NCBI GenBank assembly: GCA_019322375.1
Contig: JAHWIP010000003.1
Span: 6,792 to 70,791 of the forward strand
DNA from: Candidatus Woesearchaeota archaeon
GTDB taxonomy: Archaea > Nanobdellota > Nanobdellia > Woesearchaeales > SM23-78
Direction: 5' to 3'
Length of the DNA: 64,000 bases
The notes under the pieces are model-generated. The model saw nothing but the letters and a program-made list of their open reading frames with translations, had not been told where the DNA came from and did not search any database. How positions within the stretch are numbered: position 1 is the first letter of the stretch; every line of letters starts with the position of its first letter. The translations under genes were made by a program, and so were the position numbers. Positions 32,755-46,639 of this stretch are shown piece after piece.

Positions 32755-33042
32755 ATGGATAAAAAAGCCCAGGGTCTGAGTATGAATGTTATTATAATAG
32801 CAGCAATAGCTCTTTTAGTGCTTATCATTCTTGCTGTTCTTATCCTGAGAGCAGGTAAAGGAGTGACTGAAGGTACAGGGTGCAGAGGTGTTGGAGGAAT
32901 TTGTTATTCTAGCTGCACAGACTTGATTGAGGACAGAGGCGGAATGTGGGTTAAGAATCTTCCTAACAGCGGAAAGAATGGTGGCTGTTCAATAGACCAG
33001 GTTTGCTGTGTTGAACTATTAGAAACACCTGAGGATTACTAA
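32755..33042 (+). CDS. Small pilin-like Cys-rich protein (class III signal peptide KAQG|LSMNVIIIAAIALLVLIIL)
   Basis: 95 aa; SD AGGTGA upstream; 8 Cys ending in the VCC motif. Paralog of the next two genes. Confidence 0.55.
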   Translation: MDKKAQGLSMNVIIIAAIALLVLIILAVLILRAGKGVTEGTGCRGVGGICYSSCTDLIEDRGGMWVKNLPNSGKNGGCSIDQVCCVELLETPEDY

Positions 33043-33044
33043 AA

Positions 33045-33335
33045 ATGAAGTTCTTGAATAATAAGAAAGGAGTCCAGCTAACCCTTTCTACAGTGGTTAT
33101 TGCAGTGCTTGTAATCATTGTGCTCATAGTGTTGATAGTGATTTTTACCCAGGGAACAGGCTTGTTCAACATAGGAATAACCAGCTGCGCTGATAGGGGA
33201 GGTAATTGTAATTACGAATCAGCAGATCAATGCGTTGATACTGGCGGCAGTGTTTACAGGTTTGGCAAGTGCACCGACGGGGTTTGCTGTATTCCTAAGG
33301 ACAAGCTTTCAGGGCAAGATGATAATCAAGACTAA
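33045..33335 (+). CDS. Small pilin-like Cys-rich protein (KKG|VQLTLSTVVIAVLVIIVL)
   Basis: 96 aa; Cys pattern C..C....C....G..C..GVCC shared with its neighbours. Confidence 0.55.
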   Translation: MKFLNNKKGVQLTLSTVVIAVLVIIVLIVLIVIFTQGTGLFNIGITSCADRGGNCNYESADQCVDTGGSVYRFGKCTDGVCCIPKDKLSGQDDNQD

Positions 33336-35157
33336 TAAGAAGAGGGCTGAGCTCACTATAACCCAAGTAGTACTCATGGTTCTGGGTGTAGTTGTTCTTA
33401 TTGTGCTGCTTTTTGTTTTGAAAATAATACCCACAGGAATTAGAAGTCTTACGAGCTGCTCTGACTGGGGGCAGTGCAGGCCAGGAAATGTTTGCGCACC
33501 AAATGAATACATAAAATTTGAAGCAAAGGATGACTGTCCTGCAAACCATGTGTGCTGCGTGCCTACAACCACAAGGCCAGGACCTCTTCAGGATTTTAAT
33601 GAAAAAGAGCTTGAATACCTGAGAAATGCTATTATCATAAAGCTTAACAATGACCCTACGCCTATAAGCGATGTAGCAAGCCTTAACTTAAAAGTTGATA
33701 CTAATTATACATTTCGTATAAGTATTAATGATAAGCTCACCAAGGATAAAAAAACAAGTGAAAAGCTTGGCCCTTGCGCTGTTTATGTGGTTGACACAAG
33801 AGAAGCAGGCAAGAAATATTTATTAACAAATAAAGGCTGGGACTTGATTCTTTCTGACAAAGAGATTGATTTGAGCGGCATAGAGCTGGCTGAGTGCACT
33901 GAAGAAAGCATTAGGTTAAAAAAATATTCTCCTTCACTAAATGATGTTTACAAGGACTTGGTGCTGTATGTTATTCTTTTGGATAAGGAAGTTGTTGATG
34001 CACTTGAAGTATTAGAAACACACGACCCTGGCTTTGTTAAACTAACTGCTCCTGGGTTTGGCAGTGGAATTAATCTCCCTGATAGGGGGATGGCAGCTTT
34101 TTATAATCTCACAACAATGTACAGCAATGTTGACCACTGGCTTGCTTACAGAGCCATAAGACTTAATGTTGAGCCAGTAGTCCAGATTAGTGGTATGAGC
34201 GGAATATGGGTTGACAAGGACCCAATAACCATATCCTGCCCTGATGTTACCTGCATCAGGTTTGGCTTAAAACTAGTGAAACTAAAAGACAATGATTATT
34301 TACAGTTGGTAGAAGAGTGCAAGAAGCCAGAAGGCTTTAAGTACACTCTTGATTATGTTGCAGGAACAACAACAAAAACAACAGGCATACCATTGAACAT
34401 TAATATTGGAGGTTTCAGGATTCCTCCTCAAAGACAAAAACTCCAGTACATTGTAAGCCAAAAACCAATAACTGTTGTTAATAATAAAGCAGATGTTTTG
34501 ATTGACAGGGCTACCATGCTAAAAACCTTTTACTCAGGAGACCACGAGTTATTAATCGAGGACACTACTTATCTTTGCGTAGAAGCCACCAAGGATGACG
34601 GCTCAAAGGTTCATGGGCTCTCAGAGCAGCCTATTAAAGTGGATGTTTTTCCGCCCATGGTTGACCCTGACAAGGATGTGCAGTTATTTTATCCAGACCC
34701 AGTGATCTCATCAGACATATCAACCCCTTATTATTACAGGAAGTACCCTAAGATTGTTGTTTCTGGATGCTATGATTATGGCCAGAGCGGATGCACTAAT
34801 TATGATTACTATATTCATTCAGGAGAATTTGTTAATCTAAGGTCTCTGACAGCAGAGTGGGAGATAGGAATTGCTTCTTTGATACTAACAGAGGGCTTGA
34901 ATGCCCTGCTCACTTATTTTGCAGAAAAAGATGCTGTCAACACTATATGCCCGTTTATAACCAGCCATTCTTACACAAGAAACACCCGCAATGAGATAAG
35001 AATCCCAAGGCAAGGGCAGGGCATAATATGCATCAGGGTTAGTGACAAAGTAGGCAACAAAGACATTATCTGGAAGGTGCTCTGGACACCTGAAGAGATG
35101 TTCAAGAAAATTATTGCAGAAGGAGTGGCAGAGGCAGAAGAAGCAGTGACTGGATAG
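33319..35157 (+). CDS. Large pilin-like protein (KKRA|ELTITQVVLMVLGVVVLIVL) with an N-terminal Cys-knot-like module
   Basis: ATG at 33319 inside track ORF 33235-35157; the first 28 codons overlap the previous gene. Same C...HVCC module, then ~520 aa of unknown ectodomain. Confidence 0.55.
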   Translation: MIIKTNKKRAELTITQVVLMVLGVVVLIVLLFVLKIIPTGIRSLTSCSDWGQCRPGNVCAPNEYIKFEAKDDCPANHVCCVPTTTRPGPLQDFNEKELEYLRNAIIIKLNNDPTPISDVASLNLKVDTNYTFRISINDKLTKDKKTSEKLGPCAVYVVDTREAGKKYLLTNKGWDLILSDKEIDLSGIELAECTEESIRLKKYSPSLNDVYKDLVLYVILLDKEVVDALEVLETHDPGFVKLTAPGFGSGINLPDRGMAAFYNLTTMYSNVDHWLAYRAIRLNVEPVVQISGMSGIWVDKDPITISCPDVTCIRFGLKLVKLKDNDYLQLVEECKKPEGFKYTLDYVAGTTTKTTGIPLNINIGGFRIPPQRQKLQYIVSQKPITVVNNKADVLIDRATMLKTFYSGDHELLIEDTTYLCVEATKDDGSKVHGLSEQPIKVDVFPPMVDPDKDVQLFYPDPVISSDISTPYYYRKYPKIVVSGCYDYGQSGCTNYDYYIHSGEFVNLRSLTAEWEIGIASLILTEGLNALLTYFAEKDAVNTICPFITSHSYTRNTRNEIRIPRQGQGIICIRVSDKVGNKDIIWKVLWTPEEMFKKIIAEGVAEAEEAVTG

Positions 35158-35229
35158 CAAGTTAACTTAACATCTCCCTTCTTAATAAAACCGAAAGTTT
35201 ATTATAATTCTGTTATGATAGATTAGGAT

Positions 35230-35334
35230 ATGAAAAAAGGAGATTTGTCAACACTGGCAACTGTTATAATTATATTATTAACTCTTGTGTTTATAATCTT
35301 TATTTTCGGAAGAATCTATGGGTGGTGGGGTTGA
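35230..35334 (+). CDS. Tiny 34-aa pilin-like ORF (MKKGDLSTLATVIIILLTLVFIIFIFGRIYGWWG)
   Basis: KKG|DLSTL plus a hydrophobic helix only; below the ORF-track cutoff. Confidence 0.3.
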   Translation: MKKGDLSTLATVIIILLTLVFIIFIFGRIYGWWG

Positions 35335-35339
35335 AAAGG

Positions 35340-36299
35340 ATGAGCAGGATTAATAAAAAAGCAGGATTAAGCACATTACAAACAATTATCATTATCCTGC
35401 TCATATTTGTTGTTCTATTAATCTTTTACCAGGACTTAAGAGCAACTCTGTTAAAAAAATCTAACAGAGAGATATGCAGGGCTACTGCTCTTGCCCAGTC
35501 TGTTGCTGTGTGGGCGCCTGAAGGAGAGAATTTGGTTAGTCTTGAATGCAAGACTTACAAGGTTGTGTTTTTTGAAGACCATGTTGAGATTAATGATGAA
35601 ATAATTGAGGTGTATGACCCCAGGAAAAAAGATGTTGTTAAAAAGTTTAATGGCTTAACAGAGGACATTGTTAACTGGGTGATTGCAGAGGAGCTCAGAT
35701 GGTGCTGGTGGCAGTTTCTTGAAGGAAAAAAAAGCTTGTTAAACATGAAGAACTTTTTTGGCTCAGCAGAAAGAACCTGTTTTTTATGCACTGAAATAAC
35801 TTTTGATGAATCAGTTAAGACTGATGAATTCAAAAACTTCTTTAAGTACACCAAGGAAAAAACAATGCCTAATTCTGAAATGACTTATTACCAGTACTAT
35901 GCTGAGGAGCCCAGGAAGTGCATCTGGAGGTATGAAGAGATTATTGATGCAGATAATTGCTGGGAAGCCTATGCACAGGGCATCTCGCCTAATATAATAA
36001 CCAGCACTGTACAGCATTTTAAAGAGGCATTTAGCCATTGCTCAGGCATAATACCTGCTCTTTCAACTTACTGGTCTTCTGTAACGCATTATAGTGTTGT
36101 TAAAAACATAACCTTTGAGAAAGATAAAAAGTATGCTGTGACTTTTGTAAGGGAAGGAGCAACCTCAAGGCATCTTGAGCTAGAAAAATTAGTAAAAGGA
36201 GAGACTGATTGTTTTTTTGAAACTTATTTTTCATATGTAATCCCTTCTGATGAACTAGGAAAGCACTGCGGCCCTGTGAGAAGAGGCTCTATGAAATAA
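35340..36299 (+). CDS. Pilin-like protein (KKAG|LSTLQTIIIILLIFVVLLIF), paralog of 36301-37197
   Basis: ATG at 35340. Shared ectodomain pattern C....C...CWW..F..G...F.G...C..C..ITFDE with the next gene. Confidence 0.55.
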   Translation: MSRINKKAGLSTLQTIIIILLIFVVLLIFYQDLRATLLKKSNREICRATALAQSVAVWAPEGENLVSLECKTYKVVFFEDHVEINDEIIEVYDPRKKDVVKKFNGLTEDIVNWVIAEELRWCWWQFLEGKKSLLNMKNFFGSAERTCFLCTEITFDESVKTDEFKNFFKYTKEKTMPNSEMTYYQYYAEEPRKCIWRYEEIIDADNCWEAYAQGISPNIITSTVQHFKEAFSHCSGIIPALSTYWSSVTHYSVVKNITFEKDKKYAVTFVREGATSRHLELEKLVKGETDCFFETYFSYVIPSDELGKHCGPVRRGSMK

Positions 36300-36300
36300 A

Positions 36301-37197
36301 ATGAACAAGAAAGCCATTGTGTTTGACAAACTCATGACAGCTGTTCTGATAATCATTGTGCTGGCTGTTTTTATTTTTTTCCTGGTAAAGATAAAAATCC
36401 ATGCCTTAAAAATTGTTGAGGATTCTGAGTGCAAAGCAAGCATTATCAGCCATGCAACTCTTTTAAGGGTGACTGGAGAAGACACAACACCAGACATTCA
36501 CTGCCCTACCAAATATTATACTCTTCCAAAAGAAAGCAATGAAGAAATAAAGCATTATATTGCTGATTCATTAAAGACCTGCTGGGGAACCTGGGGCAAA
36601 GGAGAGCTTCAGTTATTTAACCAGCAAGGCTATTACTGCCATGTGTGCTCTGTGATTGATTTTGATGATAAAACAAAAAAAATACAAGGCCTGAACAATT
36701 ACCTGATTAATACGCCAACAGATAAAGATACCCCTCTCACATACATGGACTACCTCACAGGTTATGCATCTGAAAAAGCAGACCCTGCATTAATACAAGA
36801 GGTTCAGGAAAAAGGTTTTTCAGACACCATACACACTTCAAAGCCTTATGCAGTCATGTTTGTTTATGCCAAAGGAAAAACAGGTGTTAAAGCATTTCTT
36901 GATGGCATGGATGCTCTTGGCCTGGGAACAACAGGAGGAGGAATCACTACAGGGCTTGCACTGGGCTCAGCAGCAGGCATAGGGCTGGCAGCAGCAGGAG
37001 TGGCAAGTGGTGGAGCAGCAATTGTTATAGCAGGAGCAGTCACAGCTGCTGGCGGAGTGATAGGCTATATAACAGCAGATGATACTCACTGGATAGCCCT
37101 TACATTGTTCACAGAATACAATGCTGAAACCCTGAAAAGCATTGGGTGCGAGATAGCCCCTGCAAAGCAGGACAGAAAAACTGATGAAACTGGTTAA
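36301..37197 (+). CDS. Pilin-like protein with a shared Cys module and a C-terminal Gly/Ala-rich glycine-zipper hydrophobic segment
   Basis: 298 aa; the stop of the previous gene overlaps its ATG (TAAAATG); GLGTTGGGITTGLALGSAAGIGLAAAGVASGGAAIVIAGAVTAAGGVIGYI. Confidence 0.55.
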   Translation: MNKKAIVFDKLMTAVLIIIVLAVFIFFLVKIKIHALKIVEDSECKASIISHATLLRVTGEDTTPDIHCPTKYYTLPKESNEEIKHYIADSLKTCWGTWGKGELQLFNQQGYYCHVCSVIDFDDKTKKIQGLNNYLINTPTDKDTPLTYMDYLTGYASEKADPALIQEVQEKGFSDTIHTSKPYAVMFVYAKGKTGVKAFLDGMDALGLGTTGGGITTGLALGSAAGIGLAAAGVASGGAAIVIAGAVTAAGGVIGYITADDTHWIALTLFTEYNAETLKSIGCEIAPAKQDRKTDETG

Positions 37198-37280: not shown

Positions 37281-37442
37281 ATGAGTTATGGCATGAACCG
37301 TATGAACAAGAAAGCCCAGGAAACAATGAGTCCTGAAGGCGGCACACTAAGAATAATATGGTTTGTGATTGTCTTATTAGTACTTATTATTATTGTTTAT
37401 TTTGTTGCAACAAATTTTAAACTAATCAAACTGCCATTTTGA
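37281..37442 (+). CDS. Small 53-aa pilin-like ORF (…NKKAQETMSPEGGTLRIIWFVIVLLVLIIIVYFVATNF…)
   Basis: Manually translated 54 codons; charged N-region then a hydrophobic helix; below the ORF-track cutoff. Confidence 0.3.
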   Translation: MSYGMNRMNKKAQETMSPEGGTLRIIWFVIVLLVLIIIVYFVATNFKLIKLPF

Positions 37443-37451
37443 GGTTAAGAA

Positions 37452-38285
37452 ATGAAGCTGATAAATGCTATTGGTGCCATTGTTTTAGGATTGTTTGTAT
37501 TAATTATACTAATCCTGATATTTGTTCCAAACACATTCAAAATTGTTAATAATATCTTTCTTATTATTGGCCAACAATTAGGCTTTAACCCAGCAGTTCC
37601 TGGAGGTGAAGACTATGGCTTTGGAGGGCTTTATGGAAGCACACCATCAACTATTCCAACTGATGCTGAGCCAGAGCGTATTAAAAAAGTCAAAACAAAG
37701 CCAGGCATTCCTGTTGATGAAAAATATTTTGGAGAGCTCTACTCTTATTCCAGGGAAGGAGCACTTGTTGACACCATTGTACTGCACCACACAGGGGATA
37801 ATAAAGCTTCGCAAACATTCAATACTCTGAAAAAAAGAGAGCTTTCAGTGCATTATGTTGTTGACAAGGACGGCACAATATATTACTTGATAGATGAGAG
37901 CACAAAAGGCGCTCATTGCGGTTGCTGCCCGCCAAGCAACCCGACTTGTTGCAAAGCAGGAGAAAACTGTCCTGTTTGCCTGAATGAAGAATTAAGAGAA
38001 ATGAATGCCAAATCAATAGGCATTGAAATTGTTAACACAGGATATGCAGATGATTACTACACTAATGAGCAATATGTTTCAATAGATAAACTGATAAATG
38101 ATATTGCAAGCAGATGGACTGCTATTGCTGTTGATAATGAGCATGTGCTTGGGCATTACCAGATTACACTGGGTAAGTGGGATCCTTCACCTGTTTTTAA
38201 ATGGGCAAGAATACAAGGATTGTCAGGCCACTTAATGCTTGCAGACATAGGAAAAAAAGCACCCTCTGAATACGGCTATACATGA
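37452..38285 (+). CDS. Membrane-anchored N-acetylmuramoyl-L-alanine amidase (Amidase_2 / T7-lysozyme / PGRP fold) with a Cys-rich insertion
   Basis: TIVLHHTGD (Zn His), SVHYVVDKDGTIYYLIDE...AHCG, NAKSIGIEIVNTG, VLGHYQITLGKWDPSP. These align with T7 lysozyme AIFVHCSAT / VGYHFIIKRDGTV / NHNSIGVCLVGG / AHHEVAPKACPSFD. A CCPPSNPTCCKAGENCPVC insert is present. N-terminal TM. Confidence 0.7.
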   Translation: MKLINAIGAIVLGLFVLIILILIFVPNTFKIVNNIFLIIGQQLGFNPAVPGGEDYGFGGLYGSTPSTIPTDAEPERIKKVKTKPGIPVDEKYFGELYSYSREGALVDTIVLHHTGDNKASQTFNTLKKRELSVHYVVDKDGTIYYLIDESTKGAHCGCCPPSNPTCCKAGENCPVCLNEELREMNAKSIGIEIVNTGYADDYYTNEQYVSIDKLINDIASRWTAIAVDNEHVLGHYQITLGKWDPSPVFKWARIQGLSGHLMLADIGKKAPSEYGYT

Positions 38286-38352: not shown

Positions 38353-39081
38353 TTGCAAGAATTATATGAGATGAAACCCTTGTTTTCAAAGAATAAAAAA
38401 AAGAAAGGCTTGTCAACCCTTGGAACCATTATAGGACTAATACTTTTACTAGCAGTCCTGGCAATCTTTCTTCCGGTTATTCTTCGCGCAGGCAAAACAA
38501 CTGATGAAGTCCCCAAAGACATAATGGACCCTGTCAAGGCATGCCATGGAAAAGAGAGTGGTGAGGAATGTTATCTTGGCGGAATAGCTGGTTTTTGCAG
38601 GGATTTCAGGTGTGTTATAGAGACTTCAGCAAAAAACATGAAAGAATCAATAACTATTTTCAAGACAACTTTCAAGGACAGCATTGAGAATTGCCAGAAA
38701 GATGTAGCCCAGTGCCCTGAGGCAACAAAGGCTCTGGACTTAATGATTGGTTATTTCACAGATGCAGGGCTTGTTGTTCATAGATTAGCCTCAGACAGAG
38801 CAGAGTTCAGGCTATACCAGGAAAAAAACTTTTTAGGTATTGGAGGGCATAAAGCCTCTTTTGTTTTTTACGGCGATACTTGTGTAATAGAGAAGAAAGG
38901 GGATAATGATGTTCCTACATCGGGCAAAAACTTTAAGCTTGGGATCAAAAAAGAAAGCAAAGGTTTTGTAGTATATGACCTTGAAAAAACTGCTGCTGAA
39001 CTAGGCACTTTTATATCTTTCAGGCATCAAACCCAGAATGATGCAACCACCCCGGTCTGTGTTTATTACACTACAGATTAG
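38353..39081 (+). CDS. Pilin-like protein (KKKG|LSTLGTIIGLILLLAVLAIF)
   Basis: 242 aa; textbook class III signal peptide. Confidence 0.55.
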   Translation: MQELYEMKPLFSKNKKKKGLSTLGTIIGLILLLAVLAIFLPVILRAGKTTDEVPKDIMDPVKACHGKESGEECYLGGIAGFCRDFRCVIETSAKNMKESITIFKTTFKDSIENCQKDVAQCPEATKALDLMIGYFTDAGLVVHRLASDRAEFRLYQEKNFLGIGGHKASFVFYGDTCVIEKKGDNDVPTSGKNFKLGIKKESKGFVVYDLEKTAAELGTFISFRHQTQNDATTPVCVYYTTD

Positions 39082-39154
39082 CAATGCTAAAATAAATTTT
39101 ATTATCATAAAATATTTAATTATTAAAAAAAATTGATTGCAAAGGTGAACTATT

Positions 39155-39808
39155 TTGTTAACAAAATCAAGAAAAGGACTTTCCCTTTTAGGAATGCTTG
39201 GTGGTGTAATCATAGTAGTTGTACTGGTTATTGTTCTAATCAATATTTTCATTAACAGAGGAGCCAAGCCTCTGGAGAACATCACTGGAGAGATAATTAC
39301 CTGCGGAGGACTTGCAGGTGTTATTGGCGGGGGAGAAGGGGTTTGTATAAGCAAAAGCACTCTTTGCGACGGCCCAAAGCTTCCTAATCCTGAGTGCAAG
39401 GCTAGCAATCCTGACAAGCCTTATTGCTGTTTTAAACAAGCAGAGGGTGCTGAAGGCCCTCCTGGTTCTGGCCCGACGGCTTGTGTTAAGGATGTTGACC
39501 CCTGGGAACCTGTAATTGTTGAAGACGATTATGTTTGCGCTTCTAGTAAGGAGGCGTGCGAGCAGACTATGAATTTTGTTAATGTTCTGAATGAATGTGC
39601 TCAATTTAGTGAAGGTTGTGAATGCAAGGATGAAGTAGAAGGAATTGAGCACCCTTGTGAAGGCAATCTTAAATGGGCTCTTTTTGGCCTTGATAAATCT
39701 GAGCCTAAACATGAAGTTGTTATGAAATGCTATCCTGCTGTTAAGGAATGCGAGGATTCAAATGAATGTGAGCGTTGTGTTCCAAACCATTTTGAATGTG
39801 CAGAATAA
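39155..39808 (+). CDS. Pilin-like Cys-rich protein (SRKG|LSLLGMLGGVIIVVVLVIVL)
   Basis: 217 aa; ~20 Cys in the ectodomain. Confidence 0.55.
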   Translation: MLTKSRKGLSLLGMLGGVIIVVVLVIVLINIFINRGAKPLENITGEIITCGGLAGVIGGGEGVCISKSTLCDGPKLPNPECKASNPDKPYCCFKQAEGAEGPPGSGPTACVKDVDPWEPVIVEDDYVCASSKEACEQTMNFVNVLNECAQFSEGCECKDEVEGIEHPCEGNLKWALFGLDKSEPKHEVVMKCYPAVKECEDSNECERCVPNHFECAE

Positions 39809-39872
39809 TAACTCTGTTAATTCTTCCCCACCGAAACAAATTTATACTTATTAAGCAAGTTTCTTATGTATT

Positions 39873-41027
39873 ATGGCTTGGATGAATAAAAAAGGCGGTG
39901 AAAGACAGATTGGACTTAGCGAACTTACGCTTTATGTGTTTGTCATTCTGCTTATAGTTGTCTTATTTATTGTTAGCTATAGGTTTATCGGAGCTTTTCT
40001 CAGAGGAGGAGTTGATAAAGACACTGAGTCTAATTTTGTGTCACTGGCAGAGAACCTTGAGTTAATGATTGAGAAAGACGCAGGGTTTGAATACCAGACC
40101 ATGATTTTTTATATGAAAGAAAAGCATTTTGTGTTTGGCTTTACATCCAAGCAGGCTCTTTCCTCTTCTCCAGCAAAGCATTTTATGCCTGAGAAATGCA
40201 ATGAGCACTCATGCCTTTGCCTGTATAAAGAACCTGATGATGTAGCAGATGACAAGCCTGTCAAGTGCATATCTTTTGGGCACAAGGTTATTTTTCATGG
40301 CTATGACTTAAAAAAAGTGTCTGCTGCTCAGCTGGTTTATCCTGACCTAGGAGCAGAGCTGGGTGCGCGTGAGCAAGGAGAATCTTATTATTTATCTGAT
40401 TATCCTGAAACTATTTCTTTTTATATAGAAGGCTTGTTTATTGGCCCTTCACTAGACAATCCTCATGACCTTTACCTGGAAAAAATAGTTGCTAATAACA
40501 GGGTGCATGTTTTTGTGACTCCTGGCCTTAAGCAGGAAATGATAGAGACAAGGATTGAACTGTTATCTCCCTGCCCTTTTGATTCTGATGAAGAATGCAT
40601 GGGCAAGAGAAGAAACTCTGTTCTGGGCAGTAATGATTATTGTTTTTATGATGAGAGCCAGGCTAAGTGCTTGTTAAAAAAAGATGTGGATGCCTGTTCT
40701 TTCTCAGACAGAATTACACAGCCCTGTCTTTGCGGCTCTACATTTATAGACCCAGACACCAGGACAGAAGAAACCTATTGTTATCAAAAATCTGATAAAA
40801 GGATTTTTGTCCTTCCATTTGACTGCGATTCAGAGGAATTAAGAGAAAAAAAATGCCTTGCTTACTGCAGGGCAATCACTGATACAGAGGACTGCGACAC
40901 AAGAGAACAGGATTACTGTGATAAAGACCCTTGCGAGTTTGCTTCTAAAGAAAAGCCGTGCGAAGTGCGCCCATTAGGCAAAAAAACTTATTGTGCTTCT
41001 TACTCAAGGGATTACAGCATGGATTAA
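39873..41027 (+). CDS. Pilin-like Cys-rich protein (G|LSELTLYVFVILLIVVLFIV; Glu at +3)
   Basis: 384 aa; many Cys in the C-terminal half. Confidence 0.55.
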   Translation: MAWMNKKGGERQIGLSELTLYVFVILLIVVLFIVSYRFIGAFLRGGVDKDTESNFVSLAENLELMIEKDAGFEYQTMIFYMKEKHFVFGFTSKQALSSSPAKHFMPEKCNEHSCLCLYKEPDDVADDKPVKCISFGHKVIFHGYDLKKVSAAQLVYPDLGAELGAREQGESYYLSDYPETISFYIEGLFIGPSLDNPHDLYLEKIVANNRVHVFVTPGLKQEMIETRIELLSPCPFDSDEECMGKRRNSVLGSNDYCFYDESQAKCLLKKDVDACSFSDRITQPCLCGSTFIDPDTRTEETYCYQKSDKRIFVLPFDCDSEELREKKCLAYCRAITDTEDCDTREQDYCDKDPCEFASKEKPCEVRPLGKKTYCASYSRDYSMD

Positions 41028-41113
41028 TAATAGTTGCTTGGATTAATAATAATTATTAGTAATTGTTCTAAAAACCTAAATCTTTTTAAACTCGTTTATC
41101 AACAATTTAAGTT

Positions 41114-41596
41114 ATGAGTTTTTATGATTTTAATAACAAGAAAGCCAGGAGCATGATTGCAACTTCTTTTTATGTATTATTTGGCTTGATGCTGGGAGCC
41201 TTTTTTGTGATAGCTGTTCTTGGAAGAGTTAAGGATGCTGTTGGTGATTCTGCTTATCATAAAAAGTTTTATTCCAGGGACCTGGCCTTGCTTGTTGATG
41301 CCTTGCATGCCAGCAATGGAAAGTTTGTTGTTGATTATGATGTTAATCTTCCAGACAACATGCTCCTGGACTTTGGTCTTGAGCCTGGAGCAGTCATCTT
41401 AACAGACCGCTCTGACACACTCATGGATAACAGGCATAAAACTGCTTTTTTGTTTGGGCATAATGATTATGTAAAAATAATTCCTGTCACAATTGACAAG
41501 AACATGCTTAAATTGTTAGTGGTGGCTGATAACAACACCATTACATTTGAAGAGAAAGGGATGGATGATTTAAGTACAAATGATAAAGAGGAGTGA
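41114..41596 (+). CDS. Pilin-like membrane-anchored protein
   Basis: 160 aa; KKARSMIATSFYVLFGLMLGAFFVIAVLG. Confidence 0.45.
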   Translation: MSFYDFNNKKARSMIATSFYVLFGLMLGAFFVIAVLGRVKDAVGDSAYHKKFYSRDLALLVDALHASNGKFVVDYDVNLPDNMLLDFGLEPGAVILTDRSDTLMDNRHKTAFLFGHNDYVKIIPVTIDKNMLKLLVVADNNTITFEEKGMDDLSTNDKEE

Positions 41597-41629
41597 TTTA
41601 AGTATAAATGATTTAAGCAAAGAATAAGG

Positions 41630-42169
41630 ATGAGAATAATAAAAAAGAGGCTGAGCCTGAATAACAAAAAGGGGTTGGGAACTGAGGAGTGGCTTGAACT
41701 TCTGCCTTACATAGTGTTAACAGTGGTTGTAATGGTGGCTATTTTTGCCCTGATAAACCTTTTTGTTAATATTTCTGTTGATGTTAAGCCTGTTCAAAGG
41801 GAAGTTCTTTTCTACAGGCTGATGTATGCTCCTAACTCAATTATGTATATGGATAATCTTACTGGCAGGGTTCACCCTGGTGTTATTAGCTGGGATAATT
41901 TTACCAACCAGACCCTTGACAAATCTATTGCTTATGATTATGAAAGGCATATATCTGCAAAATTGATATTATATAACCTGGAAAAAGAGCCAATCAAAAC
42001 AGCTTATCTTAATGGGCTGTGGTTTAACCGCTTAGAGCCTTTGGCCAGGAGCAGGATTAAGGGTGCAGGCAGTGCAGAGCTCTACACCAAGAAAATCCCT
42101 GTTGTTTACAGGAGAAATGATGTGAACAGGGCAGGCTATCTTAAAGTTGAGATTATCATTCCAAACTAA
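41630..42169 (+). CDS. Pilin-like protein (KKG|LGTEEWLELLPYIVLTVVVMVAIFALINL; Glu at +4/+5)
   Basis: 179 aa; class III signal plus Glu5, like bacterial T4 pilins. Confidence 0.55.
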   Translation: MRIIKKRLSLNNKKGLGTEEWLELLPYIVLTVVVMVAIFALINLFVNISVDVKPVQREVLFYRLMYAPNSIMYMDNLTGRVHPGVISWDNFTNQTLDKSIAYDYERHISAKLILYNLEKEPIKTAYLNGLWFNRLEPLARSRIKGAGSAELYTKKIPVVYRRNDVNRAGYLKVEIIIPN

Positions 42170-42184
42170 CAGCGAGTGATTTGA

Positions 42185-42853
42185 ATGAGCAGTTTGATTA
42201 ATTCAAGAAAAGGCATGAAAACCATTGTGACAATATTATCAGTTGTCTTGTTAGTATTCATATTCATAATATTTATTTTTCTTTTCAGGCTTGGCGCCAG
42301 GAACAAGGCAGAAAGCATAGAATCAGATTTTTCCTCTGTAAGAACAGAGTTTTTGCTTAAAACCTTTTTAAGAACACCAGCTGTTATTAGTGATGATTAC
42401 CCTGTTGAAGACTTGTTCCCTGGCATAGGAGAAGGCATTACCAATGCAGACCTGGTATCATGGACATGTAGTAAGGATAAAGACAGGAATTACAAGACCT
42501 TGAAAAACTCAATAAACACTTTTTTTGATGAGGCATATGAAGATGACTGGGAAGCATGGATAATCTATTCTAATCCTAAAGTAAAAAAGAAGGGCTTTGG
42601 GCACAAGAGTTATCTTGAAGGGATTGAGAAAAGCATAAACCGCTTGCTAACAGCAGGACAGCTGGCTTTGCTAGCAGCCAAATCATCAGACCCAGCCAGC
42701 AGGGGATTAATCTTCAAGCTTTTTATAACTCCTTATCGTGAAGCAGGCTTTGGCTCCCAGGTGGTTCCTTGCCCAGACGGAGAACTAGCCCAGATAATGC
42801 TTTACTCCCACACAGCATTTATTGAAATAAAACACCTGAAAGGCTTAACATAA
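42185..42853 (+). CDS. Pilin-like protein (SRKG|MKTIVTILSVVLLVFIFIIFIF)
   Basis: 222 aa. Confidence 0.5.
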   Translation: MSSLINSRKGMKTIVTILSVVLLVFIFIIFIFLFRLGARNKAESIESDFSSVRTEFLLKTFLRTPAVISDDYPVEDLFPGIGEGITNADLVSWTCSKDKDRNYKTLKNSINTFFDEAYEDDWEAWIIYSNPKVKKKGFGHKSYLEGIEKSINRLLTAGQLALLAAKSSDPASRGLIFKLFITPYREAGFGSQVVPCPDGELAQIMLYSHTAFIEIKHLKGLT

Positions 42854-42865
42854 GATAAAATAAAA

Positions 42866-45800
42866 ATGGATAAAGTAAAACTGAGATTAAAAAACAGAAA
42901 AGCACAGGTTTACCCGCTTTTTGTAGTGGTCTTTACAATAGTGGCCTTGACAACAGCCCTTATTGGCTTGAGCAATGCAAAAGAGGTTACTGATTTATCT
43001 GGCAGGGAAATGCTTATCGGCACCAAGCAATCAGCTGTTTTTGCATCTCTTCAAGACGCAGATGCTGTTAGTTTATTCATAGAGCAGGCAGCAGAATTTG
43101 CAGGCCAGCAAGCCCTGGATAAAATAAGAAAATCATGCTTTTTTGGAGTTGATGAGGAACAAGAAGTTGATGAGTGGGAGTCTCCATGCGGCAAGTTTGT
43201 TTATCCTCTTTGGAGCACTAATGAAAATCTTTGCCTTCCTGATTGTGAAACAGCTTTTGTCAATGCCTTTAACAAGGATTTTTTAAGCCGAACAAACAAG
43301 TATTATGAGTTCACAAACATAGAGCTGCCTATTTCTTATAACATGAGCCTGGAAATACATGACAATCATTTTTTTGTTCATGGAACCTCTGACACAGAAC
43401 TAAGGATTAATGTGGTTGATATTCAGAGCAGGATTAAGTCTCCCCTGGCAATAGCCCAGACTTATGAGGAAGGCAGGCTTATCTGGCCTGTTGATTACTC
43501 TGACCACACAATCACCTCTTGCTTTGGTGAAAGAGATGTTGTTGGGGGGAGCAAATACCATCCTGCTGTTGATATCCGGGCTCCAAAAGGAACACCAGTG
43601 CTGGCAGCTGCTTTAGGAAAAGTGATTCTTACTGACCCTTGCTGGGGAAGAATTGTTATTAATCATGGCTCTGGCTTAAGCACAGAGTATCTTCACTTGG
43701 AAAAAATTGATGTTAAGGTTAATGATGATGTGGTGCAGGGACAAAGAATAGGAACTTCTGGCAGCAATGGCTGTGACACAAGAGAGTTTGTTCCGCACCT
43801 GCATTTTGGGGTTATATATCAAGGTGTTCAGTCACCCATGCATTATAAAGGGCAGGAAATAGTTTTGAGCAACAACCATATCCAGCCCATGTGCTTGATT
43901 GAAAAAGGGTATGCTGCTAAGCCAGAAAGCAACTGCAACCAGCTTGTGAACACAGACTTAGACAAGATTTGTGAATTGTATAATCTGCCAGAAGAATTTT
44001 TTGAATCATCAGAATCATCAAAGCCATCAGAGCCATCAGAACCAGACCAAGACACTTCTTCTGAAGAAAGTGCTGATGCAGAGAATGCTGGTGCAGAAAG
44101 TGTTAATGCAGAAAGCACTGAGCTGGATTATTCTCTGGCACAGGCTCCTGGCAGCTATGCTTTTAAACCATCTTTTACCTTGAGGGTTAACAAGAAAATA
44201 GAAAACCCTATTGAGCCAGTAACAGAGTGGTTTGAGAACACCTGGAACGAGTGCGAGGATGACCCTTGGAAATGTTTAAGAGAAAAAATGAGTGAGTTTA
44301 ATGAGCAGGACTATGATTACAAGCTCATGTTTGCTGACAGGTGCGAGGAAGGCTATCACTTGTTCTATGACATACTGGAGTTTTTTGAGGACTGCTTTTC
44401 AAACCAGAAGTATGGGTGCTCATGCGAGTTTAATTTATCAGATGCTTTTTCAATAACTGACTTGCGAATAGTTTTTGACACACAAGCAAACACAGCCTCT
44501 CTTTTTTCCAAGCAGGGAGATAAGCCTGGTGATGAATATGAATTAATTGATTCATACCAGTTCTATTATGGAAGCATAACCAAGCCAGCCCCTGCTTCTC
44601 CTTATAGGTATTATGTGTATCAGCTTGATTATGATGATTATGGGGAGCTGGAAAATGCAGAGCTTATGCAAATGAAGTCATTGCTTGATGTATTTGATGT
44701 TGTGCCTTTTTTTGATTACAAAGAACTAAGACTGGCAAAGCCAGGAGAGGCTGAGCAAGGATATTTTGTGAACACAGAAACAATTCAGTGCAAGTACAAG
44801 AAGAACAAGTTCAGGCTGTGTGCAAAGCCAGCACAGGAAAGAGAAGACTTGTTCCCTATAAGGTTTGCTTTTCACTTAAAAGACAAGCCTCCTGAGCCTG
44901 TTAAAAAAGGAGATGTGGAAATTATAGAGGTGGAGGAGAGTTCTGAGTCAGATGTTGACAAGGTAATGCAGGCAGCAGGCTTTCTAGGAACCATATTCCC
45001 TCCTCTAGGCTACTTGTTCACAGCAATTAATATTCTCAGTGTGTTGGAAGACTTTAAACCAAGAAAGTTCGAGGTAATAGTTGATGTTCCTCTTGACAAG
45101 GATGGCAAACCCCTGGATGTTGCTGGCTATGAAGTTTATTGCAGTGATTACCTGACAAACATCCTGCCAGTGGATGTTTTGGATAAATATAATCCAAGTC
45201 ATTTTGTTGTGATGGCTAATGATGAGATGAATAAAAAAGTAAGCCAGCTAGACCAGTATGTTAAGAAGAACCCTTACACAGACTTTCTGAATCTTGAGAG
45301 CTGTGATGTGCCTGTGAGCAAGTTCACAGGAGAAACCATTCTTGTGCCTGGAATCAAAGGGGTTGTTAAGGACGGTAAAATGGTTTTCAACCTTCATAAA
45401 TGCGGGGACTTGGCAATAATTATAGATAAACTAATAAGAAAAGACTACTGTGTATCACTAATACCTGTTGACAAGAATGGCAACAAGATAATGGAGCATG
45501 CTGTGAGCAACTGCGCGCAAACCAATTCACTGCTTGACCTGGTTATTAGTGAGATGATAGAGGAACAGCTAGGAGAATTTATTCCTGCAAGCCTTATACC
45601 TGATAATTTAAAGCCTTATATCAAGCTGCCTGACACAAGCGATATTGTTAATGCAGTAACAGGGGAAGGCAGTTTTGACATGATAGACATTGTTAATCTT
45701 GACAAGCTGGACGCAGACATAAAAAATTATCTTGAGGAATTCGTGGTTGGAACTATTAATGAAGACATAATAGGCACTTCTGTTGTTAATTCTATTGATG

Positions 45801-46639
45801 ACTTAAAGCTCTGGGAAAAACAAACAGTGCTTAACACCCTGTCAAACCAGATAAAAAATGATGATGCAAAAACCTTGTTTGATGCCTTTGTAACAGGAGA
45901 AGGTGTTGCTGAGTCTGCCAAGCGCATGGCTTATGAAAAAGGAGTAGGATATATAGACCAGACAAAAACACCTGAGATACTTAAGGAGATAGCCAAAGGA
46001 GAAGACCCTAAAAGCCTTGCATACCAGGAACTGGTAAAAGCAGCTGAGAAAGAGCTCAGCACTGACGAGAAAAAACAGGCTCTGCTGGAGATAGCCAGGA
46101 GCAGCAGTGGAAGAGAGGTAAAAGATAAGATAATAGAAAAAGCCCTTGAAAAAGGATGCGGCGAGTCATATGGAATAAGTGCAGAGCAGGCAATCAACTG
46201 CCTTGACAATGAAGAGGTAGAAAATATTTATCACAAAGTTCTGACAGACTACAGCACACCAGACAAGGTAAAACAGTTTTTGCTTGACAAGGCAATTGAC
46301 AAGTTTGATGAAAAAACACCAGACGTGCTAAAAGAGATTGTTCTGAAAAGAGACTTTAAAGGAGCAGCAAAGGACATGCTTGAGAAAGAGCTTGACAAGC
46401 TTCCAGACGCTGTTAAGAAAGAGTTTATTACTGATATACTTGAAGGCAGGCTTCCAGATGTTGAGTACTTGCAGCAGGAACTAGTGAAAATGATACCAGC
46501 AGTAAACAATGAATATGTGAATGCCCTGCTAAAAGACGGCAATGTTAAAAACCTGATAGAATCAACCCTTAAATCAGAGATAGAAAAACAACTAGGCTCA
46601 TTCTTCTCAGATGAATGCGTGGCAATTAATAAGGATTGA
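42866..46639 (+). CDS. Giant (1257-aa) pilin-like protein carrying a LytM/M23 metallo-endopeptidase domain
   Basis: N-terminus NRKAQVYPLFVVVFTIVALTTALIGL. M23 motifs HPAVDIRAPKGTPVLAAALGKVIL...IVINHGSGLSTEYLHL...GQRIGTSGSNG...PHLHFGVIY (HxxxD ... HxH). S/E-rich linker repeats at ~43990-44110; long alpha-helical K/E-rich C-terminal region. Confidence 0.75.
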   Translation: MDKVKLRLKNRKAQVYPLFVVVFTIVALTTALIGLSNAKEVTDLSGREMLIGTKQSAVFASLQDADAVSLFIEQAAEFAGQQALDKIRKSCFFGVDEEQEVDEWESPCGKFVYPLWSTNENLCLPDCETAFVNAFNKDFLSRTNKYYEFTNIELPISYNMSLEIHDNHFFVHGTSDTELRINVVDIQSRIKSPLAIAQTYEEGRLIWPVDYSDHTITSCFGERDVVGGSKYHPAVDIRAPKGTPVLAAALGKVILTDPCWGRIVINHGSGLSTEYLHLEKIDVKVNDDVVQGQRIGTSGSNGCDTREFVPHLHFGVIYQGVQSPMHYKGQEIVLSNNHIQPMCLIEKGYAAKPESNCNQLVNTDLDKICELYNLPEEFFESSESSKPSEPSEPDQDTSSEESADAENAGAESVNAESTELDYSLAQAPGSYAFKPSFTLRVNKKIENPIEPVTEWFENTWNECEDDPWKCLREKMSEFNEQDYDYKLMFADRCEEGYHLFYDILEFFEDCFSNQKYGCSCEFNLSDAFSITDLRIVFDTQANTASLFSKQGDKPGDEYELIDSYQFYYGSITKPAPASPYRYYVYQLDYDDYGELENAELMQMKSLLDVFDVVPFFDYKELRLAKPGEAEQGYFVNTETIQCKYKKNKFRLCAKPAQEREDLFPIRFAFHLKDKPPEPVKKGDVEIIEVEESSESDVDKVMQAAGFLGTIFPPLGYLFTAINILSVLEDFKPRKFEVIVDVPLDKDGKPLDVAGYEVYCSDYLTNILPVDVLDKYNPSHFVVMANDEMNKKVSQLDQYVKKNPYTDFLNLESCDVPVSKFTGETILVPGIKGVVKDGKMVFNLHKCGDLAIIIDKLIRKDYCVSLIPVDKNGNKIMEHAVSNCAQTNSLLDLVISEMIEEQLGEFIPASLIPDNLKPYIKLPDTSDIVNAVTGEGSFDMIDIVNLDKLDADIKNYLEEFVVGTINEDIIGTSVVNSIDDLKLWEKQTVLNTLSNQIKNDDAKTLFDAFVTGEGVAESAKRMAYEKGVGYIDQTKTPEILKEIAKGEDPKSLAYQELVKAAEKELSTDEKKQALLEIARSSSGREVKDKIIEKALEKGCGESYGISAEQAINCLDNEEVENIYHKVLTDYSTPDKVKQFLLDKAIDKFDEKTPDVLKEIVLKRDFKGAAKDMLEKELDKLPDAVKKEFITDILEGRLPDVEYLQQELVKMIPAVNNEYVNALLKDGNVKNLIESTLKSEIEKQLGSFFSDECVAINKD

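What the first reader, a model, noticed from the sequence alone, without database searches (positions are those of the whole stretch)
37452..38285. Archaeal membrane-anchored Amidase_2 (T7-lysozyme/PGRP-type) enzyme with a Cys-rich insertion
Four collinear blocks match the MurNAc-L-alanine amidase fold: IVLHHTGD; VHYVVDKDGTIYYLIDE...AHCG; NAKSIGIEIVNTG; VLGHYQITLGKWDPSP. A 25-aa CC/CxxC insertion sits between the blocks. The enzyme is anchored by a pilin-like N-terminal helix. Its substrate bond does not exist in archaeal walls.
Basis: partly seen in the sequence, partly recalled or inferred. Interest (0 to 1): 0.7.

Follow-up and report, generated by a model that had tools for sequence, protein, structure and literature searches.

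The report
Woesearchaeal membrane-anchored peptidoglycan amidase
This gene of a tiny uncultured archaeon (Woesearchaeota) encodes an apparently active, surface-tethered enzyme that cuts bacterial cell-wall peptidoglycan, and it sits in a conserved operon of pilin-like proteins carrying interchangeable wall-cutting enzymes, which suggests these archaea attack or attach to bacteria.

Summary
ORF 37452-38285 (+, 277 aa) matches Pfam Amidase_2 (E 4e-25). All four motif blocks are at the stated places. H112, H235 and D244 (zinc ligands) and E192 and K242 (catalytic) align with the AmpD/AmpDh2 active site, and the AF2 model (pLDDT 87.5) matches AmpD, AmpDh2 and AmiD. The contig is archaeal. NCBI already names this exact protein an N-acetylmuramoyl-L-alanine amidase of a Candidatus Woesearchaeota archaeon. 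Its closest solved relatives are the periplasmic AmpDh2/AmiD enzymes, not T7 lysozyme or PGRPs, and the third zinc ligand is Asp. The Cys-rich insert (aa 156-176) holds all 7 cysteines and occurs only in a subclade. Context is the new part. The gene lies in a 14-gene same-strand operon (32755-46639) whose products nearly all start with a KK[G/A]+hydrophobic, prepilin-like N-terminus. The operon ends in an M23 peptidase. Longer relatives of the amidase share that peptidase's N-terminal ~190-aa module. The module defines about 1,900 protein clusters, and every enzymatic Pfam domain found fused to it is a peptidoglycan hydrolase. Best reading: an extracellular anti-bacterial wall-breaching toolkit. 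Archaeal peptidoglycan hydrolases are already published, so this is a new variant of a known kind.

The parts
37452..38285 (+). Amidase gene, 277 aa. It comprises an N-terminal anchor helix, a G/P-rich linker and an Amidase_2 catalytic domain.
   Evidence: ORF. Pfam PF01510 E 4.3e-25. An identical protein is in NCBI as N-acetylmuramoyl-L-alanine amidase [Candidatus Woesearchaeota archaeon].
37452..37577 (+). aa 1-42: predicted long N-terminal alpha-helix, hydrophobic over aa 4-25. It is a membrane anchor and has no [KR][GAS] cleavage motif.
   Evidence: AF2 helix 2-42 with pLDDT 82-97. Sub-threshold Flp1_like hit, E 0.067. Motif scan.
37578..37766 (+). aa 43-105: linker that is low-confidence over aa 44-57 (G/P/S/T-rich), followed by the pre-domain segment.
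   Evidence: pLDDT below 50 for aa 44-57.
37767..38192 (+). aa 106-247: Amidase_2 catalytic domain. Zinc ligands are H112, H235 and D244. The catalytic residues are E192 and K242.
   Evidence: Foldseek finds AmpD 2y2b at E 2.9e-10, then AmpDh2 and AmiD.
37917..37979 (+). aa 156-176: Cys-rich insertion CGCCPPSNPTCCKAGENCPVC, 7 Cys, directly after invariant H155.
   Evidence: About 10-12 of 71 homologues share it, with 2-7 Cys. Modelled at pLDDT 76-91.
37281..37442 (+). Conserved micro-ORF (53 aa) with NKKA followed by a TM helix, immediately upstream of the amidase.
   Evidence: Positional and sequence homologues exist in L001 (47 aa) and L088 (44 aa) at 37-41% identity.
32755..33335 (+). Two small genes (95 and 96 aa) at the head of the operon. 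They are candidate type IV pilins: KKA/KKG followed by Q/V and a hydrophobic helix, with 6 Cys each.
   Evidence: Equivalent genes occur in L001, L003, L005 and L088. They match no Pfam family.
33319..37197 (+). Three operon genes (612, 319 and 298 aa) with KK[R]A/KKAG/KKA + hydrophobic N-termini. They are Cys-rich and have no known domains.
   Evidence: Syntenic in L001/L002 and L088.
38371..42853 (+). Six operon genes (236, 217, 384, 160, 179 and 222 aa) with the same prepilin-like N-termini. Some have up to 8% Cys. No Pfam or PHROG hits.
42866..46639 (+). Last operon gene, 1257 aa. It has the N-terminal carrier module (aa 1-~200) followed by Peptidase_M23 (aa 231-321; HxxxD = HPAVD and HxH = HLH both present) and a long C-terminal extension.
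   Evidence: Pfam M23 E 1.8e-21. NCBIfam hits to peptidoglycan metallopeptidases. The N-module is homologous to that of long-form amidases, at E 1e-8 and 7e-5.
26..1891 (+). Polytopic membrane protein. It is homologous to the 720-aa protein that follows a T2SSE ATPase in relative L004, so it is a candidate type-IV-filament platform protein. It is followed by a second row of pilin-like genes (3019-9744).
   Evidence: BLASTP E 2e-11. L004 gene table..

Best explanation
The gene encodes a catalytically competent, zinc-dependent N-acetylmuramoyl-L-alanine amidase of the AmpDh2/AmiD/AmpD branch of Amidase_2. A DPANN archaeon (Candidatus Woesearchaeota) makes it.

Shown:
- The fold, the H-H-D zinc site and the Glu/Lys catalytic pair are intact.
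- The gene is native to an archaeal chromosome and has been kept for a long time (41-52% identical orthologues in the same operon).
- It is co-oriented and tightly packed with 13 other genes whose products nearly all carry a KK[G/A]+hydrophobic N-terminus.
- The operon ends in an M23 peptidoglycan endopeptidase.
- The N-terminal ~190-aa module of that peptidase is shared by long-form amidase relatives. Across about 1,900 protein clusters, the enzymatic domains found fused to the module are all peptidoglycan hydrolases.

Inferred:
- The N-terminal helix holds the enzyme in the archaeal membrane, or in a pilus-like assembly built from the operon's small pilins.
- A ~35-60-aa flexible linker lets the catalytic domain reach outward.
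- The substrate is the murein of a neighbouring bacterium, since the archaeon has none. The amidase strips stem peptides from glycan strands while the M23 enzyme cuts cross-links. Together they locally open the bacterial wall for attachment, feeding or killing.
- The Cys-rich loop next to the active site is most likely a disulfide-stapled (alternatively metal-binding) substrate-groove loop specific to this subclade. This fits the generally Cys-rich secreted proteins of the operon.
For: Identity and competence of the enzyme:
- Pfam Amidase_2 E 4.3e-25.
- The family profile hits AmpDh2 at 1.2e-35, AmiD at 5.7e-26, AmpD at 1.3e-22 and T7 lysozyme at 4.4e-12.
- Residue-level alignment to the AmpD and AmpDh2 active sites.
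- H112 and E192 are invariant; H235, K242 and D244 are over 90% conserved across 28 homologues.
- The AF2 model has pLDDT 87.5, and its best Foldseek hits are AmpD, AmpDh2 and AmiD.

Archaeal and native:
- Archaeal markers lie on the same contig.
- The gene's GC content equals its surroundings.

Conserved operon:
- The operon is conserved in L001/L002 and L088.
- Rows of prepilin-like N-termini surround the amidase in five further loci. One of these has a T2SSE ATPase, and a Peptidase_A24 gene ~8 kb away.

Carrier module:
- The N-module is shared between the M23 protein and long-form amidases.
- An HMM search finds 1898 clusters, with the module always at residues ~1-170.
- Among 109 members, the enzymatic Pfam domains found are VanY 19, SLT 12, M15 11, M23 10, plus NlpC/P60, CHAP, Amidase_2, Amidase_3, Glucosaminidase and lysozyme-like.
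- The module-carrying gene occupies the same locus position, directly upstream of RPA, with different catalytic heads in different genomes.

Other support:
- Operon proteins have 2-8% Cys against 0.4-0.8% in cytoplasmic neighbours.
- The literature supports anti-bacterial peptidoglycan hydrolases in archaea and in Woese/Pacearchaeota (PMC12352652, PMC8204110, PMC9723730).
Against: - No activity, localisation or target has been measured.
- This protein lacks a recognised cell-wall-binding domain and lacks the carrier module.
- Its own N-terminus has no prepilin cleavage motif.
- The small 'pilins' match no Pfam pilin family.
- A positively charged N-terminus followed by a TM helix is also what an ordinary signal anchor looks like.
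- No ATPase or prepilin peptidase gene lies inside this window.
- Only 64 kb of the genome was seen, so the absence of murein synthesis in this organism is assumed from general knowledge of archaea.
Confidence: 0.65

Rival explanations
1. Scavenging enzyme. The amidase and its partner hydrolases digest free peptidoglycan fragments or dead-cell sacculi in the environment, supplying amino acids and amino sugars to a metabolically reduced archaeon. No live-cell contact or attack is involved.
For: The catalytic evidence is the same as for the main explanation. The protein has no cell-wall-binding domain. DPANN archaea are described as recyclers of cellular compounds (PMC9723730). This protein's closest solved relatives are the AmpD/AmiD/AmpDh2 amidases. 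From general knowledge, AmpD and AmiD process muropeptide fragments during wall turnover.
Against: Membrane tethering and embedding in a pilin-like operon fit contact-dependent action better than bulk digestion. So does the polymorphic 'carrier + variable hydrolase head' architecture at a fixed locus. Head swapping between close genomes resembles arms-race effectors. No muropeptide transporter or downstream catabolic gene was seen in the operon.
Confidence: 0.2
2. Non-enzymatic peptidoglycan receptor or adhesin, like the non-catalytic PGRPs. The domain only binds bacterial wall to mediate attachment.
For: Amidase_2 includes purely recognition PGRPs, and Foldseek recovers many of them at E 1e-5 to 1e-3. 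The protein is surface-tethered.
Against: All zinc ligands and the catalytic Glu and Lys are retained. They are invariant or over 90% conserved across the family. The nearest relatives are active enzymes.
Confidence: 0.05
3. Viral or mobile-element endolysin. The gene belongs to an integrated virus or plasmid and serves lysis of a bacterial host, or the contig is a mis-binned bacterial or phage fragment.
For: PHROG endolysin and amidase families hit the catalytic domain at E 7e-17. The M23 domain also hits phage families.
Against: The PHROG hits cover only the catalytic domains, and none of the eight other operon proteins scanned hits any PHROG. Archaeal RNase P RNA, RPA, RadA, Hjc, NAC and the splicing endonuclease lie on the same contig. 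The operon sits at the same chromosomal position (NAC/Sec61beta ... RPA) in diverged Woesearchaeota. GC content is the same as the surroundings.
Confidence: 0.03
4. Self-directed envelope enzyme. The amidase remodels a murein-like or other amide-linked polymer of the archaeon's own envelope, for example to let its own pilus-like filament pass. Bacterial secretion and pilus systems use dedicated wall hydrolases in this way.
For: It is co-encoded with a filament-like operon. Bacterial type IV pilus, T2SS and T4SS loci often carry dedicated peptidoglycan hydrolases (general knowledge).
Against: Archaea are not known to make murein (general knowledge). No paper reporting murein synthesis in Woesearchaeota was found. 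The many different bond specificities fused to the same carrier (glycosidases, amidases, DD- and LD-peptidases) match the full chemistry of bacterial murein. That variety looks like an attack arsenal rather than one housekeeping activity.
Confidence: 0.05

Closest known systems
AmpDh2 (Pseudomonas aeruginosa; PDB 4bj4, 4bol, 4bpa) and AmiD (E. coli; 2bh7, 3d2y): membrane-anchored periplasmic Amidase_2 enzymes
   Same: These are the best sequence and profile matches (E 3e-11 single sequence; 1.2e-35 and 5.7e-26 with the family profile) and are structural matches. They share the H-H-D zinc site with Glu/Lys and the identical 'SIGIEIVN' strand. They too are tethered to a membrane outside the cytoplasm. 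From general knowledge, AmpDh2 and AmiD act on polymeric murein as well as fragments.
   Different: The bacterial enzymes are lipoproteins and carry a C-terminal PG_binding_1-type domain. This protein has an N-terminal transmembrane helix plus linker, no binding domain, and a 7-Cys insertion replacing the ~11-aa loop after the conserved HAG motif. The producer has no murein of its own.
AmpD (Citrobacter freundii; 1j3g, 2y2b): cytoplasmic anhydro-MurNAc-L-Ala amidase
   Same: It is the top Foldseek hit (E 2.9e-10). E192, H235, K242 and D244 align to Glu116, His154, Lys162 and Asp164.
   Different: The NCBIfam AmpD equivalog score is 54 bits against a cutoff of 143, so this is not an AmpD orthologue. 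AmpD is cytoplasmic and recycles wall fragments; this protein is predicted to be extracytoplasmic.
T7 lysozyme and animal PGRPs
   Same: Same Amidase_2 superfamily and fold (T7 lysozyme at profile E 4.4e-12; PGRPs at Foldseek E 1e-5 to 1e-3).
   Different: They are much more distant than AmpDh2/AmiD. The third zinc ligand is Cys in T7 lysozyme (general knowledge) but Asp244 here. Many PGRPs are non-catalytic.
Archaeal peptidoglycan hydrolases (Strock et al. 2025, PMC12352652) and the large SLT-domain proteins of Woese/Pacearchaeota (Castelle et al. 2021, PMC8204110; Vigneron et al. 2022, PMC9723730)
   Same: Archaea that lack murein encode murein-cleaving enzymes thought to target bacteria. 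Such enzymes are prominent in Nanoarchaeota/DPANN and have a patchy, swap-prone distribution.
   Different: The Strock survey required a Pfam wall-binding domain and reported only Sec and Tat signals, so this protein would not have been counted. The earlier DPANN papers noted lytic transglycosylases. In the passages and term searches I read, they do not mention amidases, a shared N-terminal carrier module, a prepilin-like signature or a fixed operon. No paper describing these was found.
Polymorphic effector architecture of bacteria (conserved N-terminal trafficking domain + variable C-terminal toxin) and class-III-signal surface enzymes/binding proteins of archaea (Sulfolobus bindosome)
   Same: A conserved N-terminal module (aa 1-~190) is followed by interchangeable catalytic heads. 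The KK[G/A]+hydrophobic N-termini resemble archaeal class III signals. From general knowledge, archaea also use class III signals on non-pilin surface proteins.
   Different: The module has no detectable sequence or fold relationship to any known trafficking domain or pilin. Processing by a prepilin peptidase is untested.

Membership tests
Amidase_2 (PF01510) zinc N-acetylmuramoyl-L-alanine amidases | Profile match above the curated threshold over the whole domain | tested here: met
   89 bits against a cutoff of 26, E 4.3e-25, profile positions 5-131 of 131.
Amidase_2 (PF01510) zinc N-acetylmuramoyl-L-alanine amidases | Zinc-ligand triad (His, His, Asp/Cys) plus catalytic Glu and Lys at the homologous positions | tested here: met
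   H112, H235 and D244 plus E192 and K242 align to the AmpDh2 and AmpD sites. They are invariant or over 90% conserved in 28 homologues. The roles of the AmpD residues come from general knowledge.
Amidase_2 (PF01510) zinc N-acetylmuramoyl-L-alanine amidases | The alpha/beta fold of T7 lysozyme/AmpD | tested here: met
   The AF2 model has pLDDT 87.5. Foldseek gives probability 1.00 to AmpD, AmpDh2, AmiD, endolysins, PGRPs and T7 lysozyme.
Amidase_2 (PF01510) zinc N-acetylmuramoyl-L-alanine amidases | Hydrolysis of the MurNAc-L-Ala amide bond | not testable with these tools
   This needs a biochemical assay.
AmpD orthologues (NCBIfam NF008758, cytoplasmic recycling amidase) | Equivalog score at or above the cutoff, and cytoplasmic location | tested here: not met
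   54.4 bits against a cutoff of 143. An N-terminal TM helix is predicted.
AmpDh2/AmiD-type periplasmic amidases | Lipoprotein anchor and C-terminal peptidoglycan-binding domain | tested here: not met
   The only Pfam domain is Amidase_2, and the protein ends 30 aa after it. The N-terminus has no Cys, so no lipobox is possible.
   T7 lysozyme scores E 4.4e-12 against AmpDh2 at 1.2e-35. The third ligand is Asp244.
Archaeal type IV pilin-like proteins (class III signal peptide) | Short charged N-region ending in [KR]-[G/A/S] immediately before a ~20-aa hydrophobic helix | tested here: inconclusive
   The motif is not present in this protein (MKLINAIGAIV...). It is present in about 40 of 71 homologues and, by eye, in 13 of the 14 operon products.
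Archaeal type IV pilin-like proteins (class III signal peptide) | Match to a curated pilin/archaellin N-terminal family, or a pilin fold | tested here: not met
   There is only a sub-threshold Flp1_like hit (E 0.067). The small pilin candidates match no family. The carrier module has no fold match.
Archaeal type IV pilin-like proteins (class III signal peptide) | Co-occurrence with a T2SSE-type ATPase, a platform protein and a prepilin peptidase; cleavage by the peptidase | tested here: inconclusive
   Relative L004 has a T2SSE ATPase and a 720-aa protein upstream, and Peptidase_A24 8 kb downstream. Window ORF 26-1891 is homologous to that 720-aa protein. No ATPase or peptidase lies within the window. 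Cleavage is not testable here.
Modular archaeal peptidoglycan hydrolases sensu Strock et al. 2025 | [quoted passage not shown] | tested here: not met
   No binding domain is present. The definition is in PMC12352652, Methods.
Phage endolysin | Location in a viral genome or lysis cassette | tested here: not met
   PHROG hits cover only the catalytic domain, the neighbours have no PHROG hits, and the chromosomal synteny is conserved.

The most novel reading that the evidence does not exclude
Woesearchaeota (and some Pacearchaeota) carry, at a fixed chromosomal locus, a type-IV-filament-like operon. Its products include a dedicated, previously undescribed N-terminal carrier module that displays interchangeable peptidoglycan-hydrolase heads: amidase, M23, SLT, VanY/M15, NlpC/P60, CHAP and glucosaminidase. 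The short-form amidase with its metallothionein-like Cys loop is an accessory blade. Together these would form a contact-dependent organelle for breaching bacterial cell walls. That would mean many of these DPANN archaea have bacterial, not archaeal, hosts or prey, and that the head repertoire reports the host wall chemotype.
Probability: 0.35. Interest if true: 0.8.

Novelty: new variant of a known kind. Interest (0 to 1): 0.5.

Why it matters
The hosts and lifestyle of Woesearchaeota and Pacearchaeota, among the most widespread uncultured archaea, are unknown. Earlier work flagged large lytic transglycosylases as a hint of bacterial hosts.

This locus adds three things. First, a conserved, apparently active amidase. 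Second, a companion M23 peptidase. Third, a family-wide rule: one N-terminal module, many murein-specific heads, and one genomic position.

That rule turns the hint into something testable. The enzymes can be expressed and assayed on defined sacculi to read out the target wall type. The carrier module gives a search handle for the whole arsenal in metagenomes. The prepilin-like N-termini suggest an export route that published surveys reporting only Sec and Tat signals did not report. The enzymes are also candidate antibacterial lysins from an untapped source.

Tried and rejected
- Prophage or endolysin origin is rejected. PHROG hits cover only the catalytic domains, and the synteny is conserved and chromosomal.
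- A bacterial mis-bin is rejected, because archaeal markers lie on the same contig.
- Read-through fusion of the in-frame micro-ORF 37281-37442 with the amidase was considered. The frames coincide in the window and in L088 but not in L001. Each ORF has its own SD-like site and its own TM helix. It is treated as a separate conserved small gene.
- Word-indexed homologue searches with the carrier module were nearly empty, giving 1 and 5 hits. Only the exhaustive HMM search worked.
- Fold searches of the carrier module found nothing meaningful, so the 'pilin fold' idea for the module is not supported.
- Pfam scans of the small pilin candidates gave no family.
- The genome-contig scan was swamped by bacterial AmpD/AmiD-like genes, because the conserved SIGIEIVN pattern is shared. 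It yielded only two archaeal-labelled loci (L006, L007). The nearest bacterial relatives were at about 30-38% identity, and no donor could be named.
- No tRNA genes and no Rfam elements other than RNase P RNA were found in the window.
Cys-Cys distances in the insertion could therefore not be measured, and the choice between disulfide and metal site stays open.
Full report
**1. What is there**

ORF 37452-38285 (+) is a clean 277-aa frame. An SD-like GAGGT lies 7-11 nt upstream of its ATG. Pfam Amidase_2 matches over the whole profile: E 4.3e-25, 89 bits against a cutoff of 26, positions 5-131 of 131. The identical protein is in NCBI as 'N-acetylmuramoyl-L-alanine amidase [Candidatus Woesearchaeota archaeon]' on a 71-kb contig.

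The window is archaeal. It carries archaeal RNase P RNA at 32269-32573 (121 bits), RadA, RPA, tRNA-splicing endonuclease, TrmB, Hjc and NAC. The gene's GC content (0.39) equals that of its surroundings.

**2. Active site and fold**

A single-sequence search of the PDB finds AmpDh2 (E 3e-11) and AmpD. A profile of 28 homologues finds:
- AmpDh2 at 1.2e-35
- AmiD at 5.7e-26
- AmpDh3 at 1.8e-23
- AmpD at 1.3e-22
- T7 lysozyme only at 4.4e-12

In the printed alignments, H112 falls on the His of AmpDh2 'LHY'. E192, H235, K242 and D244 fall on AmpD Glu116, His154, Lys162 and Asp164. From general knowledge of AmpD, His154 and Asp164, together with the N-terminal His, are the zinc ligands, and the Glu/Lys are the catalytic pair.

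Across the homologues, H112, H134, H155 and E192 are invariant. H235, K242 and D244 are over 90% conserved. The AF2 model (pLDDT 87.5) is matched by AmpD (E 2.9e-10), AmpDh2 and AmiD, then by phage endolysins, PGRPs and T7 lysozyme.

The protein is therefore a bona fide Amidase_2 enzyme that looks active. It is not an AmpD orthologue (NCBIfam 54 bits against a cutoff of 143). Its third ligand is Asp, as in AmpD/AmiD, not Cys as in T7 lysozyme.

**3. The N-terminus and the Cys-rich insert**

AF2 predicts one long helix, aa 2-42, hydrophobic over aa 4-25. A disordered G/P-rich linker follows (aa 44-57, pLDDT below 50), and then the catalytic domain. This protein has no [KR][G/A/S] cleavage motif. 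About 40 of its 71 homologues do have one (for example MKSKKG..., MNKKA...), and another ~12 have only a TM helix.

All seven cysteines lie in aa 156-176, directly after invariant H155. Most woesearchaeal relatives have a 7-aa loop here, such as 'AKGWNAR'. About 10-12 relatives share a Cys-rich loop with 2-7 Cys. C158, C166 and C176 are the most constant, and C167 and C173 are mostly present or absent together.

Other secreted proteins of the operon contain 2-8% Cys, against 0.4-0.8% for cytoplasmic neighbours. I therefore favour a disulfide-stapled loop. The C-x-C, CC and CxxC spacing would also suit a metal-thiolate site. I could not measure distances in the model.

**4. The operon**

From 32755 to 46639 there are 14 same-strand genes with short gaps.
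- Two ~95-aa genes have very pilin-like N-termini (MDKKAQGLSMNVIIIAAIALLVL..., ...NNKKGVQLTLSTVVIAVLVII...).
- Then come 612-, 319- and 298-aa proteins, a 53-aa micro-protein, and the amidase.
- Six more proteins follow (236-384 aa and 160-222 aa).
- The last gene encodes a 1257-aa protein with a Peptidase_M23 domain (E 1.8e-21, with HxxxD and HxH intact).

By eye, 13 of the 14 products begin with [NS][KR]K[G/A] followed by a hydrophobic helix. None of the non-enzymatic ones hits Pfam or PHROGs.

The same gene order is found in L001/L002 (amidase 48% identical) and L088 (41-48%). It includes the micro-ORF and the flanking NAC/Sec61beta and RPA genes.

In more distant relatives (L003, L004, L005 and the Pacearchaeota locus L007), the amidase again lies in rows of genes with such N-termini. 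In L004 it lies next to a T2SSE ATPase and near a Peptidase_A24 prepilin peptidase.

The window's first ORF (26-1891) is homologous to the membrane protein that follows that ATPase (E 2e-11). A second row of pilin-like genes follows it.

**5. A shared carrier module**

Long-form relatives of the amidase (340-390 aa) have an extra ~190-aa N-terminal region. It is homologous to the N-terminus of the window's M23 protein (BLASTP E 1e-8 and 7e-5; alignment A2).

An exhaustive HMM search with this module found 1898 clusters at E ≤ 1e-3, of which 1258 were at ≤ 1e-10. The module was always at residues ~1-170, in proteins of 165 to over 1000 aa.

A Pfam scan of 109 members found these enzymatic domains:

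| Domain | Members |
|---|---|
| VanY | 19 |
| SLT | 12 |
| Peptidase_M15 | 11 |
| M23 | 10 |
| M15_3 | 3 |
| NlpC/P60 | 2 |
| Phage_lysozyme2 | 2 |
| Amidase_2, Amidase_3, M15_4, M15_2, CHAP, Glucosaminidase, Lysozyme_like | 1 each |

The only other domain was fn3 (7 members). The Amidase_2 count understates that fusion, because the seven long-form Amidase_2 proteins already known from the first search were left out of this set. Worked examples show the catalytic head directly after the module, at aa ~190-330.

The three members that carry source names are all labelled Candidatus Woesearchaeota. In L086 and L087 the module-bearing gene is again the last gene before RPA. In L087 the head is a glucosaminidase, and an Amidase_3 protein sits three genes upstream of it, where the Amidase_2 gene lies upstream in the window's operon.

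The module's AF2 model (pLDDT 76) has a TM helix, two long helices and a hairpin. It has no PDB fold relative. It is therefore an uncharacterised carrier, not a demonstrable pilin.

**6. Interpretation**

From general knowledge, archaea do not make murein. No report of murein synthesis in Woesearchaeota was found. All bond classes of murein are represented among the heads.

The most economical reading is an outward-facing arsenal against bacterial walls. The window's amidase would be a membrane-tethered blade that removes stem peptides, working with the M23 cross-link peptidase of the same operon.

Whether delivery is by a filament, by direct membrane contact or by release is inferred, not shown. 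The rivals are scored separately: necromass scavenging, a non-catalytic adhesin, a viral endolysin and a self-directed remodelling enzyme.

**7. Relation to the literature**

- Strock et al. 2025 (PMC12352652) showed that archaeal peptidoglycan hydrolases kill bacteria and are prominent in Nanoarchaeota. They counted only proteins with a Pfam wall-binding domain and reported only Sec and Tat signals.
- Castelle et al. 2021 (PMC8204110) and Vigneron et al. 2022 (PMC9723730) noted large SLT-domain proteins in Woese/Pacearchaeota and proposed bacterial hosts or prey.
- A 2026 preprint on archaeal type IV filament systems shows no occurrence of 'peptidoglycan', 'amidase' or 'hydrolase' in a term search.
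- Searches combining Woesearchaeota or DPANN with amidase, pili or class III signals found nothing describing this architecture.

The enzyme class in this lineage is therefore known. The short-form Cys-loop amidase, the carrier module and the fixed operon appear to be undescribed within the library I could search.

**8. Verdict**

As a single gene it is an already-annotated member of a known kind. With its context it is a new variant of a known kind, of moderate interest (0.5).

Noticed in passing
window 48092-50200 (-): A 702-aa bacterial-type sigma-70 factor (regions 1.2, 2, 3 and 4) lies on an archaeal contig. Its best NCBIfam hit is RpoD at 339 bits, below the 555 cutoff. It also hits the anti-phage MzaA models (NCBIfam 279 bits; PADLOC E 1e-51). 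Sigma-70 genes in Woesearchaeota were already reported by Castelle et al. 2021 (PMC8204110).
   Followed up: partly
[not shown]
   Followed up: partly
window 3019-9744 (+): A second row of small genes with hydrophobic, pilin-like N-termini lies downstream of the platform-like gene 26-1891. It includes a 538-aa protein (8128-9744) whose C-terminal 80 aa are extremely Cys-rich (CCCG...CCSC...CC...). None has a Pfam hit.
   Followed up: partly
window 37281-37442 (+): A conserved 53-aa micro-ORF (NKKA + TM helix) sits directly upstream of the amidase, in the same reading frame, separated by one stop codon and 9 nt. Homologues occur in L001 (different frame) and L088 (same frame).
   Followed up: yes
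window 31196-32199 (-): An adjacent nucleotidyltransferase (NTP_transf_2/Polbeta; PADLOC PDC-M05A E 6e-12) and HEPN-domain gene form a pair, resembling a toxin-antitoxin or defence module. It lies just before the RNase P RNA gene.
   Followed up: no
window 58923-61412 (-) and 54265-57738 (+): There is an 829-aa protein with a Peptidase_C25 (gingipain-like) domain and a MopE-type metal-binding motif, and a 1157-aa protein with no detectable domain. Both may be further surface or secreted factors.
   Followed up: no
L087 7880-8872 and 10001-12355: In another Woesearchaeota-type locus, the positions equivalent to the window's Amidase_2 and M23 genes are occupied by an Amidase_3 protein and a carrier-module-glucosaminidase-fn3 protein. 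The same roles are filled by non-homologous catalytic domains.
   Followed up: partly
window 32680-32700: A TATA-like TTTAAATA lies about 60 nt upstream of the first pilin-like gene (ATG 32755), in the 180-nt gap after the divergently oriented RNase P RNA gene. It is a candidate operon promoter.
   Followed up: no
L006 (contig CAZBGH010000213.1): A 2.4-kb contig binned as 'uncultured Methanosarcinales archaeon' encodes a 48%-identical homologue of the amidase. It is probably a mis-binned Woesearchaeota fragment.
   Followed up: no
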